A program made the position numbers. Positions 1-63,000 of a DNA stretch of 64,000 bases are shown here, one piece after another. The number at the start of each line of letters is the position of its first letter. Position 1 is the stretch's first letter. The DNA comes from Octopus vulgaris. Lineage: Eukaryota. The DNA is taken from positions 74,524,001 through 74,588,000 of the forward strand of contig OX597823.1 in assembly GCA_951406725.2 (NCBI GenBank). Direction: 5' to 3'.

Positions 1-3000
1 ATATATACCAATAGGCATATATATATGTGTATATATACATAGTTATACACACACACCCATATGTATATATATATATATATATATATATATATATATATAT
101 ATATATATATTTGCTTGCATACACACATTATTTGAGTTGAGTCAGCTTCTTGCTAATCTGATTATCACCTGTAGGCACATAGGATGATCAGTTGTTACTG
201 GAAAATTAATGGTGGGTAGGGGTTCACGTTTATATGTAGTTATATGTAGTTATACCCTTCTAGGCATCAGACGTGATGGTCGGAAAAAAAGTATGACAAG
301 AGGGTGGAGTGGAAAATAGCGAGAAAGAAAGAAAGAGGGAAAGGGAAAGAAAACGAAAAGAAAAATAAGGAGAGAAGAAGAAAAGAAATGAACAGGGAAA
401 AGATAGAGACGAGAGCAAATGATATACAAGAAGTAGTGGAAAGTAGACGAAAATGATAAATTTAATTATGGAAGAGAAGAGAGAAGATTAAACAATATAT
501 ATATATATATATAATTAATTAATAAGGGTGAGAGAATTAGATACTAATTTAATAGTATATCTATTCTACACCAAGTGGCCTAGTGCTCCGAGAAACCTGG
601 ATTATTATAATATTTTATAATATATTATAATATTTTTACAAAATAAATATAAGAGAGTGGTCACTATATGGCTCACTCTAGCACCAGTTAATCCAAAAGG
701 TTTCAACCACAAAAATACATGTTTCCCATGAAAGTCAGTACGATTGTTAGCTCACACGGACAGGGCAAATAAAAAATAACAAATACAGATTATTTTGGGA
801 CAATTGTTTCGCTATTAATGAATTAAATGTAATTTTACTTACAATAAAATCCACTTGTAGCTCTTCAGCCAAAACTATCTGGATGAAATCCACTCAATCA
901 CACGCCAGATTTTACCATAACGATAAATACGCGTGTGGTTCAATTGATTACATCCGACGTTATAATTCAAATGCCCCAACTAACAGCGCGCCAAATTTTC
1001 ACGGAAAACAAATACAGCATTTAGAAATAAATGCAGTATAATTATAATTAATTAATAAGGGTGAGAGAATTAGATACTAATTTAATAGTATATCTATTCT
1101 ACACCAAGTGGCCTAGTGCTCCGAGAAATCTGGATTATTATAATATTTTATAATATATTATAATATTTTACAAAATAAATATAAGAGAGTGGTCACTATA
1201 TGGCTCACTCTAGCACCAGTTAATCCAAAAGGTTTCAACCACAAAAATACATGTTTCCCATGAAAGTCAGTACGATTGTTAGCTCACACGGACAGGGCAA
1301 ATAAAAAATAACAAATACAGATTATTTTGGGACAATTGTTTCGCTATTAATGAATTAAATGTAATTTTACTTACAATAAAATCCACTTGTAGCTCTTCAG
1401 CCAAAACTATCTGGATGAAATCCACTCAATCACACGCCAGATTTTACCATAACGATAAATACGCGTGTGGTTCAATTGATTACATCCGACGTTATAATTC
1501 AAATGCCCCAACTAACAGCGCGCCAAATTTTCACGGAAAACAAATACAGCATTTAGAAATAAATGCAGCATAATTATAATTAATTAATAAGGGTGAGAGA
1601 ATTAGATACTAATTTAATAGTATATCTATTCTACACCAAGTGGCCTAGTGCTCCGAGAAACCTGGATTATTATAATATTTTATAATATATTATAATATTT
1701 TTACAAAATAAATATAAGAGAGTGGTCACTATATGGCTCACTCTAGCACCAGTTAATCCAAAAGGTTTCAACCACAAAAATACATGTTTCCCATGAAAGT
1801 CAGTACGATTGTTAGCTCACACGGACAGGGCAAATAAAAAATAACAAATACAGATTATTTTGGGACAATTGTTTCGCTATTAATGAATTAAATGTAATTT
1901 TACTTACAATAAAATCCACTTGTAGCTCTTCAGCCAAAACTATCTGGATGAAATCCACTCAATCACACGCCAGATTTTACCATAACGATAAATACGCGTG
2001 TGGTTCAATTGATTACGCTAGAGTGAGCCATATAGTGACCACTCTCTTATATTTATTTTATATATATATATATATATATATATATATATATATATACATA
2101 TATACATACATACATACATACATACATGTGTACTTACATATATATACACATACTGGTAACCCTTCGGTAAAAACCGCGATGATTCCAGTTGATCTGATCC
2201 GATGAACGTAGCAACATGCTCGCGAAATTAACGTGCAAGTGGCAGAGCACTCCTGAACAAGGTCATGACCAACATTGTTCTGAAAGTAAATCAGCGTGAC
2301 ACAGAAAGTAACAAGGCTGGTCCCCTGAAATACAGGGATATATATGTACATTACATGCATGTAAGAAGCTGGTACTGTTTCCTTCAAGCATACACAGAAA
2401 TATATATTTCAAAGTAAAATTACCTTCTTGTGATACACATATATATATTATCAGTATGTGTGTACATATGCATATATATATATATATGTATGTGTATATA
2501 TATATATATATATATATATATATATATATATATATATATATGTATAAATATGTATATATATATATATATATATATTCTTTATTTATTTGTTTCAGTCATG
2601 TGACTGCGTCCATGCTGGAGCACTGCCTTCAGTCGAACAAATCCACCCCAGAACTTATTCTTTATATGGCTAGTACTAACTCTACCGTGTCTTTTGCCGA
2701 ACCGCTGGTTGCGAGGATGTAAACAATCCAACATCGGTTGTCAATCGATGGAGGGGGGACAAACACAAACTCAGAAATAATACATACATATGCATATAGG
2801 ACGGGCCTCTTTCAGTTTCCCTCTACCGAATCCACTCTCAAGGTTCTGGTCGACCCGACCAAAACCTTGAGATTGTATATTATGTTTGCATGAAGGTCCT
2901 AATTTTGTGGAGAAATTTATGGAGGTGTAAAGGACTATTGGACAGAACAGATGAAGTCTAAACCGTCAGTAATGTTCCCGTTGCCAAAGGAGATCATACA

Positions 3001-60000: not shown

Positions 60001-63000
60001 ATAAAGATGAACGTGGCCTACAAAAAGAAAATAAATAGAAAAATTTACGGAAAATAACGAAGTGTGCGAGTTCAAGCAAACAATGAATGAGATAAACATG
60101 AATGAAAAAAGTCGTATAAATAAAAGCACGCTTAAAACCTCGATCCGAATATCTAAATTTGTGAACTCAGTAAATATTTCTTTCATTAAGCTATCGTAGT
60201 AGTTTACAAATGGCGAATAAGAACTTGAAATGAAAACATAGAAATAAAAACATTAAAATAGAGTGAGAGACTTCGGCGTTTTTACTTCAATGCCGGAAGT
60301 TGACATTGAGAAACGTTTTTAAAGAAGTTAATCACAAATATCAAGTAAAATTTCTTAACTTTTAATACAAAAAATCTAATGAAGAGCCTAACATGTTTCC
60401 GAAATCAAATTATCCATGCAACGCAACTATAGAAGCAATTGGTAAAGCCGTCTTCGAGTGGAAAGCGAATACACACATCTCTATTTTATATATTAGGTAA
60501 TACATAATAATTTAAAAATATTTTTCTTGCTGTATTGCGGGTTCGTTTCTCTTTTTTCCATCTGTGATCTTATTTGTGATCTTCTATATAGATGAAGATA
60601 TTTCTCACGCCTAGCTGCTTTTCTTTCTACGAAACGAGCAGTTACATTGCGGAAGTGTTATTTTAACGAGTTGATTCTATTTATCACCCGACGAATTACA
60701 TCTGCACCGCCATATGCTCGTAAACCATTTACTGAGTGTCCCATTCATGAGTGGGCGATGCTAGATTTGTCGAAGCAATTGTCGTGATTAATAATAAATT
60801 CTCGTATATTCCATCTTCCATCTTTCATTTGCCAAATAAATAAATAAATAAATAAATAAATAAATAAATAAATAAATATATATATAAATATATATATATA
60901 TATCTATATCTATCTGTCTATCTATATATCTATATATATATATATATATATATATATATATATATATATATATATATATATATATATATGTGTGTGTATA
61001 TATAAATATATATATATATATGTATATATATATGTATTCTTTTACTCTTATTTTCTTCCATTCATTAGACATATTTCTAAAGCATGTTACTTATTTATCG
61101 GCCTCTTTATCGAAACCCAAAATTACGTGGTTCTAAATACACCAACAGCAAATTACAATCGGTGGACAAACACAGACAAAAAGACACACACAAACACCCC
61201 AATGATGAGGTCCCGGCAAAGCCGCAACCTTAGTGCTGAAACATATAAAGTAATAAAATAATATAAACGTATATAGGGCGTACGTATTTCAGTTTCCGTT
61301 ACAAAGTTTAGATGGGCCCAACGATATAGCAGAAGACAATTGTCCAAATGTCCACGCAAAAGGACTGAGCGCGGAAATCTGTAGTTGGGAACCAAACTTC
61401 TTTCCACAGAACAATGTTATATATATATATATATATATATGTAAATGTAAAAGAATACAAACTGGGACTAGAACGTGAAACATTTAGAATACGATACAAA
61501 AAACACGGACGGGCCATTCGAAGCCTTCAATCTTCAGTCAAGAACCGGATCATCTTAGCATTGTCGGCTGATTAATCTTGAGATTTATCCGATCTGGCCA
61601 GCCCCAAAGGAAAATCTAAGCCAAGCGCATTAGATTCCTTGGAAGAAAGCCTCGAATGTATACGAAACAAGGACAGAAAAACGGACGATGTTACACGAAT
61701 AAAAATAAAAAATACAAAAATACGTAAAAACAATAATGATAGCACGGATAAGAATACAAATATTTGTAAAAACAATAATGATAATATATATATATATGTA
61801 TATATATATATATATATACCCGAAATTTAAAGGTAGGGTAAAATGATCGATAGAATCAAGTACTAGGTTTAAAATATTAGTACCGGAGTCGATACGATCA
61901 ACTAAATTTCTCTCTACGATGGTGCCCCACCGTTGCTGCAAAACAATGACTACAACAGCTAGAAGGTAAGAAAAAGATAAAAGATATATATATTTGTATA
62001 TGGGCAGAGAGAGAGAGAGAGAGAGAGAGAGAGAGAGAGAGAGAGAGAGAGAGAGAGAGAGAGAGAGCAAGGGGACGAGAAATAAAAAGTGAAATATAGC
62101 TGCATATATAGATATTTGGGGTTTCCTACCTGGTAGATGTAAAACACAGAAGTCAAGGCGAATTCTGTGTTCCCTATTTTCCTGTTTGGTGAGTTATGAG
62201 TGTTCATTGCGCTGACAGTTTTTCCTTTCTTCTTTCCGAACCAGCTTTTTTTTCGAATTTAAAGCATGTTCTTATAAAATGCGTATCATATCATAAAATT
62301 CCATATTGATCTCTTTCAAAAGTGTGCTTCTTAGTGTTAGAATAACTCAGCTACCACACTCTTTAGGTTCCTGTTCTTAAAATCCTCGTTTCCGATGTTA
62401 AAATGCTTATGTATGTTTGCCGATCCATTTACATAACGAATCAATGACTCTAAGCTTGTGCAATTGTGCGCATTTATGTTTCTAACTTTTTTCTCTTCGA
62501 TACTCTCTTTACTCTTTTACTTGTTTCAGTCGTTTGACTGCGGCCATGCTGGAGCACCACCTTTAGTCGAGCAAATCGACCCCGGGACTTATTCTTTGTA
62601 AACCCAGTACTTATTCTATCGGTCTCTTTTTGCCGAACTGCTAAGTGACGGGGACGTAAACACACCAGCATCGGTTGTCAAGTGATAGTGGGGGGGGGGA
62701 CAAACACAGACACACAAACATATACACACACTTACACATATATATATGTACACTTATATACGACAGGCTTCTTTCAGTTTCCGTCTACCAAATCCACTCA
62801 CAAGGCATTGGTCGGCCCGAGGCTATAGCAGAAGACACTGCCCAAGATGCCACGCAGTGGGACTGAACCCGGAACCGTGTGGTTGGTAAGCAAGATACTT
62901 ACCGCACAGCCACTCCTGCGCCTAACTTAATTCATGCGCATTTTTCCAAAAATTACTGAAGAACTACTGCTTTTTTTTTTAAACATTATTTCATGTACAA

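What the first reader, a model, noticed from the sequence alone, without database searches (positions are those of the whole stretch)
511..60825. Window-wide system: several unrelated HHR-bearing or fold-back inserts share a (TA)n target, and PLE coding fossils lie among them
Seen: HHR or HHR-like motifs at 0.8/1.3/1.9, 8.5, 12.2, 13.4, 29.5, 42.3, 50.0, 56.7 and 60.7 kb from at least six different sequence families. Inversion junctions occur at 2017, 14925, about 19108, 42205 and about 51140, mostly inside or abutting (TA)n. Four PLE coding fossils lie at 8.5-9.6, 14.6-14.9, 16.2 and 47.6-49.3 kb. Established: PLE insertions often show an inverted 5'-truncated pLTR, and some PLE clades target microsatellites. 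Inference: this genome hosts a diverse population of ribozyme-bearing non-autonomous RNAs using a TA-targeting GIY-YIG retrotransposase, at roughly one motif per 6 kb in this window.
Basis: partly seen in the sequence, partly recalled or inferred. Interest (0 to 1): 0.7.

Follow-up and report, generated by a model that had tools for sequence, protein, structure and literature searches.

The report
Penelope-type inserts in TA microsatellites
This AT-rich stretch of an animal genome holds a dead Penelope-like retrotransposon, a three-unit tandem repeat with a textbook hammerhead ribozyme in each unit, and several small fold-back inserts lodged in (TA)n microsatellites, a pattern already described for this class of retroelement.

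Summary
Partly confirmed, and of a known kind. Of the 11 listed hammerhead (HHR) positions, 3 are canonical type I motifs. These are three identical copies, one per unit of a 533-bp tandem array at 504-2016, minus strand. Three more (13.4, 29.5, 60.7 kb; two families) are near-canonical U4C variants. The position at 56.7 kb keeps only part of the motif. Four (8.5, 12.2, 42.3, 50.0 kb) fit no descriptor. Rfam recognises none of them.

Four of the 5 inversion junctions are real, and I found one more centred near 28.29 kb. The position 14925 is only the edge of one arm of a distant inverted repeat.

Of the 4 Penelope-like element (PLE) coding fossils, one is certain (47622-49252, RT plus GIY-YIG, E 5e-31). 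One is probable (8.8-9.6 kb, split by a SINE). Two have no support.

Insert ends defined by repeats sit on (TA)n far more often than chance: 8 of 12 against a 6% background.

Tandem units, an inverted fragment at the 5' side, a one-sided 40-95-nt tail and a (TA)n target together match published PLE and non-LTR retrozyme insertions. The claimed motif density and number of ribozyme families are overstated. No sequence links the inserts to the PLE fossils. Genome-wide claims could not be tested.

The parts
504..2016 (-). Family A: tandem array of 2.84 units of 532/533 bp, 32% G+C, retrozyme-like. Both ends lie at (TA)n (495-513 and 2059-2096).
   Evidence: Self-BLAST shows units 99-100% identical. 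G+C. The cleaved 533-nt monomer (1863->1331) folds at -150.6 kcal/mol, z -6.2, with 0 of 100 shuffles as stable.
1324..1407 (-). Canonical type I hammerhead motif; identical copies at 792-875 and 1857-1940. Stem I is 7 bp (GUUUUGG/CCAAAAU). The core reads CUGAAGA. Helix II is closed by GCUA/UAGC and carries a 43-nt insert. Then GAAA, a helix III of ACAAUUGU (2 bp plus the palindromic loop AAUU), and C17.
   Evidence: The fold shows stem I plus helix II with the core left open, z -2.1. The three copies are identical. Rfam does not recognise it.
2017..2086 (+). Inverted fragment of the family A unit (unit positions 616-682) at the 5' side of the array in ribozyme sense. Its outer end runs into (TA)n.
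   Evidence: 91% over 70 nt; 100% over 42 nt.
29462..29724 (-). Family C copy 1: a single-copy element of about 262 bp with (TA)n at both ends. The HHR-like motif lies at about 29498-29603: stem I 5 bp, core CCGAUGA (U4C), imperfect helix II (6 of 8 pairs), GAAAUAAUUGUC.
   Evidence: No Rfam ribozyme hit.
60562..60823 (+). Family C copy 2, 82% identical to copy 1. The HHR-like motif at about 60683-60788 has core CCGACGA and GAAGCAAUUGUC (position 15.1 is G). (AAAT)n then (TA)n follow the 3' end. There is no (TA)n at the 5' end.
13436..13478 (-). HHR-like motif: CCGAUGA (U4C), helix II GGG/CCC, GAAACAGCUGUA with a palindromic helix III, stem I only 3 bp. It lies in a repeat (13372-13518) whose second copy (14930-15061, inverted, 75% identical) lacks the motif.
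42079..42586 (+). Family D insert between two (TA)n tracts. It consists of an inverted arm (42079-42205), then a 27-nt piece (42206-42232) that recurs at 42560-42586, then the body, then the arm 42413-42540. A 46-nt tail (42541-42586) is present at the right end only. It has no hammerhead, only GAAACUAUAGUC at 42354.
   Evidence: No Rfam ribozyme family at E<=10.
50999..51239 (+). Fold-back insert between two (TA)n tracts: arms 51040-51140 and 51146-51239 (98%), with a 40-nt extension at the left end only.
27892..28783 (+). The left arm is 8 nt from (TA)n. About 95 nt of extra sequence at the right end ends in (TC)n(TA)n.
19076..19228 (+). 153-bp block between two (TA)n tracts, with a 14-nt perfect hairpin (19091-19104 / 19112-19125) near its left end.
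12165..12368 (+). Decayed HHR-like element. It belongs to the same diverged family as 50012-50189 and partly 30445-30535. Its 3' end abuts (TA)n.
50012..50189 (+). Second copy of the 12.2-kb family, bounded by (TA)n on both sides.
56680..56790 (-). Partial HHR-like motif: CUGACGA ... GAAACAAAUUGU. There is no helix II next to the core, and 6 extra nt lie before stem I. It ends about 25 nt from (TA)n.
47622..49252 (+). 5'-truncated, dead copy of a canonical EN+ Penelope-like element running from the RT through the GIY-YIG endonuclease. It has 22 in-frame stops and one frameshift. The non-coding 3' region runs to 49982 and ends exactly at (TA)n (49983).
   Evidence: phmmer against 1.84e9 representatives: 396 hits, best E 5.1e-31. 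Of 14 relatives scanned, 10 have RVT_1 plus GIY-YIG. The profile aligns positions 194-732 of 740. Stop counts. Sequence.
8780..9572 (-). Probable second PLE C-terminal fossil. The linker piece is at 9572-9441 and the GIY-YIG N-motif (IYCIT.IWCGALYIGNTSHCLVDRFR) at 9051-8974. My own reading continues it to about 8780. A tRNA-derived SINE at 9058-9440 splits it.
   Evidence: HMM domains at 0.9 and -1.6 bits, colinear. Scores of 0.9 or more were reached in 0 of 40 shuffled windows, and -1.6 or more in 4 of 40. hhalign P 6.7e-5 and 2.9e-4 to adjacent template segments. Pfam finds nothing here, but it also misses the positive control.

Best explanation
The window is a (TA)n-rich stretch of an animal genome that has collected insertions made by Penelope-like element (PLE) machinery.

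Shown:
- One dead, 5'-truncated PLE copy (RT plus C-terminal GIY-YIG) ends on (TA)n. Its relatives carry the Neptune/Nematis-type CX2-5CxxC linker.
- A second endonuclease fragment is probable.
- Family A is a non-LTR-retrozyme-type element: a 533-nt, non-coding, strongly self-paired unit in tandem. Each unit carries a type I hammerhead whose 2-bp helix III with a palindromic loop should need two copies to pair.
- Several inserts share the published PLE insertion anatomy: a partial tandem, an inverted 5'-truncated fragment on the upstream side, an extra 40-95-nt tail at one end only, and (TA)n at both borders.

Inferred mechanism:
- The GIY-YIG endonuclease cuts within (TA)n.
- The exposed TA 3' ends prime reverse transcription on UA-rich parts of multimeric or circular template RNA, on both strands or after a template switch. 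This yields an inverted fragment followed by the sense copy.
- The hammerhead trims multimeric transcripts to unit length.
- The U4C families (C and the 13.4-kb repeat) are weakened or decayed relatives.
- The fold-back inserts without any hammerhead would be other RNAs, or 5'-truncated copies, taken up by the same enzyme.

The active autonomous element is not in this window.
For: - PLE fossil: 396 hits at E<=1e-3, best E 5.1e-31. Of 14 relatives scanned, 10 have both RVT_1 and GIY-YIG. The profile aligns positions 194-732 of 740.
- 39 of 45 full-length relatives have CX2-5CxxC upstream of Y.I.C..C..YIG.
- Canonical HHR in 3 copies against 0.00 per shuffled window. Its fold leaves the core open between stem I and helix II. 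The monomer fold has z -6.2.
- Relaxed motifs fall in 3 families against 0.08 expected.
- Inverted fragments and arms. One-sided tails.
- Arms are 98-100% identical in D and the 51-kb insert. If the arms were identical when made, these insertions are recent (my inference).
- Termini: 8 of 12 lie within 10 nt of (TA)>=5, against a 6.2% background (P 8.5e-8). For four other repeat families, 0 of 26 termini do.
- Literature, passages read:
  - Craig et al. 2021, PMC8557442: partial tandems, an adjacent inverted 5'-truncated copy, a 30-40-bp tail at one end, HHR in pLTRs, (TA)n as the Naiad target, and the linker proposed to set microsatellite bias in Neptune.
  - Cervera & de la Pena 2014, PMC4209133: helix III of 1-2 bp with a 2-4-nt palindromic loop that acts as a dimer; motifs on opposite strands 100-700 bp apart.
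  - Cervera & de la Pena 2020, PMC7229834: tandem, low-GC, self-paired non-LTR retrozymes.
  - Li et al. 2026 preprint: retrozymes related to PLE pLTRs.
  - Perreault et al. 2011, PMC3088659: U4C lowers activity in vitro yet still allows viroid infectivity.
Against: - No nucleotide similarity links either PLE fossil's 3' region to any insert family, or the families to each other. No pLTR or canonical HHR was found beside either fossil; there is only CUGAUGUGAAAC at about 49866.
- Rfam's hammerhead models match nothing.
- Only one family passes a strict descriptor. The relaxed descriptor was shaped after I had seen the candidates.
- The fold-back inserts (19.1, 28, 42, 51 kb) carry no ribozyme.
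- In D, the 28-kb and the 51-kb inserts, one arm stops 40-95 nt short of the border. Simple priming from both strands predicts that both outer ends are template 3' ends.
- (TA)n is very dense: 78 tracts of >=6 units, 3.6% of the window. The termini set was hand-picked.
- SINE copies also border (TA)n: 4 of 6 tails. TA adjacency is therefore not specific to PLE-type inserts.
- No empty sites, target duplications or copies outside the window could be examined.
- The PLE copy has 22 stops, so no active enzyme source was seen.
Confidence: 0.6

Rival explanations
1. The inserts are an unrelated mix of element classes in a genome saturated with (TA)n. The fold-back inserts would be DNA-transposon derivatives (MITE or foldback type) that target TA dinucleotides. 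The SINE and other short elements would be LINE-driven. Only family A and the coding fossils would have anything to do with PLEs.
For: - The fold-backs have no ribozyme and no similarity to the PLE fossils.
- A MITE-like element with 33-nt terminal inverted repeats exists at 44104-44678.
- tRNA-SINE copies also border (TA)n.
- 78 (TA)n tracts in 64 kb make chance proximity easy.
Against: - The fold-backs are asymmetric. One arm abuts (TA)n, while the other is separated from it by a unique 40-95-nt tail. This fits the published PLE 'tail' but not an element that needs both terminal repeats at its ends.
- The MITE-like element in the window is more than 1.1 kb from any (TA)n.
- Family A combines an inverted 5' fragment, a tandem array, (TA)n borders and a hammerhead in a single insert.
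Confidence: 0.2
2. The inversions are not products of transposition. They would be local fold-back repair or replication errors at hairpin-prone (TA)n tracts, giving palindromic duplication of whatever lay beside a break.
For: - The outer ends of the inverted segments abut (TA)n.
- The 19.1-kb and 51-kb structures are near-perfect hairpins with 5-7-nt spacers.
- That long AT repeats are fragile and prone to palindromes is recalled general knowledge, not tested here.
Against: - The duplicated blocks are bounded by (TA)n on both sides, as inserts are.
- In A and D the inverted piece is not contiguous with its copy. It is joined to a different position of the unit, which suggests a template switch rather than snap-back on the same strand.
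- Family C has two dispersed copies.
Confidence: 0.1
3. Apart from family A, the 'HHR-like' motifs are chance resemblances or long-dead relics. The window then holds one ribozyme element, not a population.
For: - 8 of 11 listed positions fail the strict descriptor, and 4 of 11 fail every descriptor.
- Rfam finds none.
- Copy 2 of family C has G at position 15.1, and helix II is imperfect in both copies.
- The relaxed descriptor is post hoc.
- Two further core-plus-helix-II matches, at 47016(+) and 23661(-), look like chance.
Against: - Three families under the relaxed descriptor, against 0.08 expected per shuffled window.
- Both family C copies share CCGA at the core, stem I and the near-palindromic helix III, despite 18% divergence.
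- The same U4C core with a palindromic helix III recurs in the unrelated 13.4-kb repeat.
- U4C is a known natural variant with residual activity.
Confidence: 0.3

Closest known systems
Non-LTR retrozymes of metazoans (Cervera & de la Pena 2020, PMC7229834; Li et al. 2026 preprint)
   Same: Family A is a tandem repeat with one type I HHR per unit. It has low G+C (32%), no recognisable coding capacity and a strongly self-paired monomer. Its helix III is short with a palindromic loop.
   Different: The unit is 533 nt, longer than the ~170-400 nt typical range quoted. Helix II carries a 43-nt insert, which probably explains why Rfam misses it. The array has a PLE-style inverted 5' fragment and sits in (TA)n, features the passages I read do not describe for retrozymes. 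Expression and circular RNA were not tested.
Canonical EN+ Penelope-like elements with the CX2-5CxxC linker (Neptune/Nematis type; Craig et al. 2021, PMC8557442, which cites Arkhipova 2006, not read)
   Same: The fossil at 47.6-49.25 kb has an RT followed by a C-terminal GIY-YIG domain. It is 5'-truncated and its 3' end lies on a microsatellite. Its relatives carry the linker motif. Tandem plus inverted insertion anatomy is seen in neighbouring inserts.
   Different: No pLTR and no canonical HHR were found next to the fossils. The linker cysteines are decayed in the fossil itself. The clade was inferred from a motif in relatives, not from a tree.
Naiad PLEs (N-terminal GIY-YIG; Craig et al. 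2021)
   Same: (TA)n is the documented preferred target. The insertions show tandem/inverted structures and one-sided tails.
   Different: The domain order here is RT then EN, the canonical order. Naiads lack canonical HHRs. No Naiad-type sequence was searched for.
Minimal and dimeric PLE hammerheads (Cervera & de la Pena 2014, PMC4209133)
   Same: A weak, palindromic helix III; motifs found as single dispersed copies and on opposite strands; low expected activity as a monomer.
   Different: Family A has a full 7-bp stem I and a very long helix II, rather than the 4-5-bp stem I and 7-8-bp helix II described for min-HHRs.
MITE / foldback DNA transposons targeting TA
   Same: Inverted arms and TA-rich borders.
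   Different: The arms are not both terminal, the tails are one-sided, and one case has tandem units with a ribozyme. The one MITE-like element in the window (44104-44678) is not in (TA)n.

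Membership tests
Type I hammerhead ribozyme (family A motif) | Conserved core C3 U4 G5 A6 N7 G8 A9 ... G12 A13 A14 with the A15.1-U16.1 pair and H17 not G | tested here: met
   The motif reads CUGAAGA ... GAAA ... U C in all 3 copies.
Type I hammerhead ribozyme (family A motif) | Three helices around the core, helix I open, G10.1-C11.1 closing helix II | tested here: met
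   Stem I is 7 bp. Helix II is closed by GCUA/UAGC. Helix III is 2 bp plus an AAUU loop. The MFE and centroid folds show stems I and II with an open core.
Type I hammerhead ribozyme (family A motif) | Match to curated covariance models (Rfam hammerhead families) | tested here: not met
   No hammerhead hit at E<=10 in 700-2040 or at gathering score in the window. The 43-nt helix II insert is my likely explanation.
Type I hammerhead ribozyme (family A motif) | Self-cleavage after H17 | not testable with these tools
   Needs in vitro transcription of monomeric and dimeric constructs.
Type I hammerhead ribozyme (family C and the 13.4-kb motif) | Conserved core and regular helices | tested here: inconclusive
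   All three have U4C. Helix II is imperfect. Position 15.1 is G in copy 2 of family C. Stem I is only 3 bp at 13.4 kb. U4C is tolerated in a viroid.
Non-LTR retrozyme | Tandem repeat units, each with a type I HHR | tested here: met
   2.84 units with 3 identical HHRs.
Non-LTR retrozyme | Short unit (about 150-450 bp), low G+C, non-coding, highly self-paired RNA | tested here: inconclusive
   G+C of 32% and fold z of -6.2 fit. The one ORF scanned against Pfam (96 aa, stop to stop) has no match. The 533-nt unit is above the usual range quoted.
Non-LTR retrozyme | Expressed as linear and circular unit-length RNA | not testable with these tools
   No transcriptome data were available.
Penelope-like element, canonical EN+ | Single ORF with a PLE-type RT followed by a C-terminal GIY-YIG endonuclease | tested here: met
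   For 47622-49252: E 5.1e-31. Relatives have RVT_1 plus GIY-YIG (10 of 14 scanned). The profile covers positions 194-732 of 740. The EN part gives hhalign P 4.5e-9.
Penelope-like element, canonical EN+ | pLTRs (partial tandem) carrying an HHR | tested here: not met
   No repeat of the 3' region lies upstream of the fossil. No HHR was found by any descriptor in 49253-49982.
Penelope-like element, canonical EN+ | 5' truncation; complex tandem/inverted insertions; one-sided 30-40-bp tail | tested here: met
   The fossil lacks profile positions 1-193. The tandem/inverted structures and tails are seen in neighbouring non-coding inserts, not at the fossil itself.
Neptune/Nematis-type PLE | [quoted passage not shown] | tested here: inconclusive
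   Present in 39 of 45 full-length relatives. It is decayed in the fossil itself. No phylogeny was made.
(TA)n-targeting retroelement | Insert borders fall in (TA)n more often than chance | tested here: met
   8 of 12 termini within 10 nt against a 6.2% background, and 0 of 26 for control repeats. The set was hand-picked and covers one window only.
(TA)n-targeting retroelement | A pre-existing continuous (TA)n at empty sites | not testable with these tools
   No other haplotype or related genome was available.

The most novel reading that the evidence does not exclude
A single Neptune-type PLE enzyme in this genome mobilises a whole guild of unrelated non-coding RNAs by priming from cut (TA)n onto UA-rich template sites. 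The guild would include canonical-HHR retrozyme tandems, monomeric elements whose U4C hammerheads are still weakly active, ribozyme-free fold-back RNAs, and perhaps the tRNA-derived SINE. In doing so, the enzyme would split and seed much of the genome's dense (TA)n landscape. The insertion anatomy (inverted 5' fragment, one-sided tail) would then be direct structural evidence that retrozymes use PLE integration.
Probability: 0.15. Interest if true: 0.6.

Novelty: new member of a known kind. Interest (0 to 1): 0.3.

Why it matters
PLE integration is the least understood retrotransposition mechanism. Craig et al. 2021 name the tandem/inverted structures and the microsatellite bias as its open features.

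Family A combines four things in one young-looking insert (units 99-100% identical): a canonical hammerhead, tandem units, a PLE-style inverted 5' fragment, and (TA)n borders. That would add evidence from insertion anatomy to the phylogenetic argument that animal retrozymes ride on PLE machinery.

Beyond that, the window illustrates known biology.

Tried and rejected
- Rfam, whole window at gathering scores: 0 hits. At E<=10 there were 306 matches; the 150 listed are almost all microsatellite-driven sub-threshold miRNA matches, and the other 156 were not shown. Sub-ranges gave no ribozyme family.
- ARAGORN: 0 tRNA genes.
- Pfam on six frames of 8.1-9.9, 14-17 and 47-50 kb, read through stops as X: no RT or GIY-YIG, even for the certain fossil. 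Pfam also misses its EN part. Pfam negatives are therefore uninformative here.
- tblastn with 150 relatives found only the 47.6-49.3-kb fossil at E<=0.01, plus one spurious 18-aa hit at 62.85 kb.
- Low-stringency tblastn with 39 C-termini was swamped by microsatellite-encoded low complexity and was abandoned.
- ORF-by-ORF HMM search gave only noise-level scores for the weak fossils.
- I read 14.57-14.93 kb (minus strand) by eye as a possible frameshifted GIY-YIG (YRGQRARR ... RKEALHILKHDSGAMLNKH). hhalign gave P 0.28-0.44 and the HMM gave no domain at any threshold, so I rejected it.
- 16.15-16.44 kb ('VYIG'): hhalign P 0.2, rejected.
- 13489-13629 (+) resembles the linker (RCEIC): hhalign P 1e-3, and its score was reached in 2 of 40 shuffles. 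I left it as borderline.
- I looked for a permuted (type II/III) hammerhead or another ribozyme in family D by reading and by Rfam, and found none.
- HSP-end distances to (TA)n after masking were too noisy to use: 29 of 216 ends within 10 nt against 6% for random points. I replaced this with the termini test.
- The min-HHR scan added 47016(+) and 23661(-). On inspection 23661 has no stem I next to the core.
- The loose descriptor also hit 44972(-), at chance level.

Full report
CONTEXT. The window has 27-40% G+C in 2-kb blocks and is crowded with microsatellites: 131 TRF rows. It holds 78 (TA)n tracts of at least 6 units, 2,290 nt or 3.6% of the window; these merge to 66 tracts. There is no long ORF: the longest stop-to-stop frames are microsatellite-encoded. 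There is no tRNA gene. I take it to be non-coding DNA of an animal genome, because its one clear coding fossil belongs to a retroelement class reported mainly from animals. I did not determine the taxon. No eukaryotic DNA collection was available, so nothing outside the window could be compared.

HAMMERHEADS. Rfam finds nothing at gathering scores. The permissive scan is swamped by microsatellite look-alikes of miRNA families.

I therefore wrote a type I descriptor. The strict form (CUGANGA, helix II >=4 bp, GAAA, A15.1, helix III >=3 pairs, H17, stem I >=5 bp) hits three places, all on the minus strand: 875-792, 1407-1324 and 1940-1857. None of 100 dinucleotide shuffles gave any hit. The three copies are identical. 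Each reads GUUUUGG-CUGAAGA-GCUA[43 nt]UAGC-GAAA-CAAUUGU-C-CCAAAAU.

On its own the 84-nt motif folds into stem I plus an extended helix II with the core left open (z -2.1). Helix III is 2 bp with the palindromic loop AAUU. This is the form that Cervera & de la Pena (2014, passages read) describe for metazoan type I hammerheads that must pair as dimers. Rfam's models still miss it at E<=10, probably because of the long helix II.

Other listed positions:
- 29598(-) and 60688(+) belong to one family (82% identical). Both have CCGA at the core (U4C), a 5-bp stem I, a near-palindromic helix III and an imperfect helix II. Copy 2 also has G at position 15.1.
- 13475(-) has CCGAUGA, GGG/CCC, GAAACAGCUGUA and a 3-bp stem I. 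The second copy of that repeat, at 14930-15061, lacks the motif.
- A relaxed descriptor that admits these gives 6 cores in 3 families, against 0.08 per shuffled window. I wrote that descriptor after seeing the candidates, so the contrast is optimistic.
- U4C is a known natural variant. It lowers activity in vitro but still permits viroid infectivity (Perreault et al. 2011, passage read).
- 56766(-) keeps CUGACGA and GAAACAAAUUGU, but has no helix II next to the core.
- 12.2 and 50.0 kb are two copies of one old family with two or three core changes each.
- 42.3 kb has only GAAACUAUAGUC.
- At 8.5 kb I found nothing.

In total, 3 of 11 listed positions are canonical, 3 are variant, 1 is partial and 4 are not supported.

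FAMILY A AS AN ELEMENT. Units of 532/533 bp are repeated 2.84 times between 504 and 2016 at 99-100% identity, with 32% G+C. The RNA between two cleavage sites (1863->1331, 533 nt) folds at -150.6 kcal/mol, z -6.2. Its two ends pair as stem I. These are the features given for non-LTR retrozymes (Cervera & de la Pena 2020, passages; Li et al. 2026 preprint, abstract and sections 3 and 14). The unit is longer than usual.

In ribozyme sense, the array is preceded by an inverted fragment of the unit (2017-2086). This fragment is joined to a different unit position, and its outer end merges with (TA)n. The 3' end of the array also lies on (TA)n. Both outer ends fall in UA-rich parts of the unit. That would fit priming by TA ends through microhomology, which is my inference.

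INVERTED STRUCTURES.
- Confirmed: 2016/2017; a 14-nt perfect hairpin centred at 19108; 42205 (arms 99-100%); 51140 (arms 98%).
- One unlisted older fold-back is centred near 28290 (arms 344 nt, 86%).
- 14925 is not a junction. It is the edge of an arm whose partner is 1.4 kb away.
- In D, a 46-nt stretch (42541-42586) exists at the right end only, and its last 27 nt recur at the inversion point.
- The 51-kb insert has a 40-nt extension at the left only. The 28-kb insert has about 95 nt at the right only.
- Craig et al. 2021 (passages) describe exactly this for PLEs: partial tandems, an adjacent inverted 5'-truncated copy, and a 30-40-bp tail at one end.
- A MITE-like element with 33-nt terminal repeats (44104-44678) serves as a contrast. 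It is symmetric and far from any (TA)n.

(TA)n ASSOCIATION. I took 12 termini that are defined by repeat structure rather than by the microsatellite, from A, C (two copies), D and the 28-kb and 51-kb fold-backs. Eight lie within 10 nt of (TA)>=5, against 6.2% of window positions (binomial P 8.5e-8). None of 26 termini of four other repeat families does. The set is hand-picked and the tracts are dense, so this supports the association within the window only. A cruder test on all BLAST segment ends was noisy: 29 of 216 within 10 nt.

CODING FOSSILS.
- The frame at 47708-48559, read through stops as X, finds 396 proteins at E<=1e-3 among 1.84 billion representatives, best E 5.1e-31.
- Of 14 relatives scanned with Pfam, 10 have RVT_1 plus GIY-YIG, 3 have RVT_1 only and 1 has GIY-YIG only.
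- A profile built from the 45 relatives of >=650 aa aligns to 47622-49252 over profile positions 194-732 of 740, with one frameshift and 22 stops.
- The copy is 5'-truncated. Its 3' non-coding part ends exactly at (TA)n 49983.
- 39 of the 45 relatives carry CX2-5CxxC before the GIY-YIG core. Craig et al. give this as the mark of Neptune and Nematis, and as the proposed source of Neptune's microsatellite bias (citing Arkhipova 2006, which I did not read).
- A second fossil on the minus strand is probable. 9572-9429 aligns to the linker and 9060-8974 to the GIY-YIG N-motif, in colinear order. The better score was reached by 0 of 40 shuffled windows and the weaker by 4 of 40. hhalign P values are 6.7e-5 and 2.9e-4, against 4.5e-9 for the positive control. 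A SINE copy (9058-9440) separates the two pieces.
- Nothing supports fossils at 14.6-14.9 or 16.2 kb.
- tblastn with all 150 relatives finds only the first fossil.

WHAT IS MISSING. The PLE fossils' 3' regions share no sequence with any insert family, and the families share none with each other. No pLTR or canonical hammerhead flanks the fossils. The fold-backs have no ribozyme. The SINE family (6 copies) often borders (TA)n too: 4 of 6 tails. Dependence of all these inserts on one TA-targeting PLE enzyme is therefore a reasonable inference from anatomy and literature. It has not been shown.

VERDICT. Its explanation is the known biology of Penelope-like elements and their retrozyme-type non-autonomous relatives inserting into (TA)n. 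I rate it a new member of a known kind, of modest interest. Its value is family A, which unites a hammerhead, tandem units, an inverted 5' fragment and a (TA)n target in one insert.

Noticed in passing
2582-2858, 9058-9440, 12432-12798, 37766-37912, 51295-51729, 62501-62924: A tRNA-derived SINE family of about 370-430 bp. It has a tRNA-like head (GCAGGAGTGG...GGTTCCGGGTTCA), an internal TA/TG microsatellite that has expanded in the 51-kb copy, and a tail ending ...GTAAAAGAG. Four of 6 tails are followed by (TA)>=3. The 62-kb and 37.7-kb copies are not, and the 62-kb copy may have an AAGTTAG duplication. One copy splits the probable PLE fossil at a short TATATA site.
   Followed up: partly
12400-12450: The last 17-20 nt of the SINE tail occur again in inverted orientation across a (TA)6, tail to tail with the full-length copy. 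This is the opposite arrangement to the head-to-head PLE-type inversions.
   Followed up: no
window-wide, e.g. 12350-12368, 15205-15220, 20405-20421, 20675-20688, 28760-28783, 31660-31678, 51745-51762, 53530-53549: (TC)n, often ending ...CTCTCTG, lies directly 5' of (TA)n on the + strand at 11 of 66 tracts. The reverse-complement arrangement, (TA)n(GA)n, occurs once (binomial P 0.006). The sequences upstream are unrelated. The strand bias is unexplained. It could be a shared retroposon tail, or an orientation bias of insertions such as occurs within a long intron.
   Followed up: partly
20154-20421 and 20456-20688: Two direct copies (81-83% identical) of a unit of about 250 bp. Each ends in (TCTG)n(TC)n followed by (TA)n. 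This is another short element class tied to (TA)n, and it has no hammerhead.
   Followed up: no
44104-44678: A MITE-like element with 33-nt terminal inverted repeats (97% identical). It is more than 1.1 kb from any (TA)n. I used it as a contrast to the asymmetric fold-backs.
   Followed up: partly
3711-4031, 11092-11293, 16367-16489, 22603-22795, 25103-25489, 28911-29018, 55884-56046: An interspersed repeat family (70-86% identity; tandemly duplicated at 3.7-4.0 and 25.1-25.5 kb) of unknown type, not associated with (TA)n. Two further small repeat families lie at 5499-5647 / 7489-7665 / 15517-15712 and at 2195-2336 / 15719-15861.
   Followed up: no
13489-13629 (+): A borderline match to the PLE linker region (..RCEIC..). 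hhalign P is 1e-3, and its HMM score was reached in 2 of 40 shuffled windows. It lies next to the 13.4-kb HHR-like motif but on the opposite strand.
   Followed up: partly
7883-8271, 36096-36498, 37000-37307, 58108-58234: Very long microsatellite arrays: (TCTA)98, (ATT)135, (TAC)103, (AAT)43. All sub-threshold Rfam miRNA 'hits' (mir-297, mir-466, mir-3149 and others) fall on TA/TG/CA repeats and are artefacts.
   Followed up: no
47050-47140 (-): A tRNA-like T-arm sequence (GGAATCGAACCCAGG on the + strand) lies just upstream of the truncated PLE copy. ARAGORN calls no tRNA gene there. It may be another SINE head or a tRNA relic.
   Followed up: no
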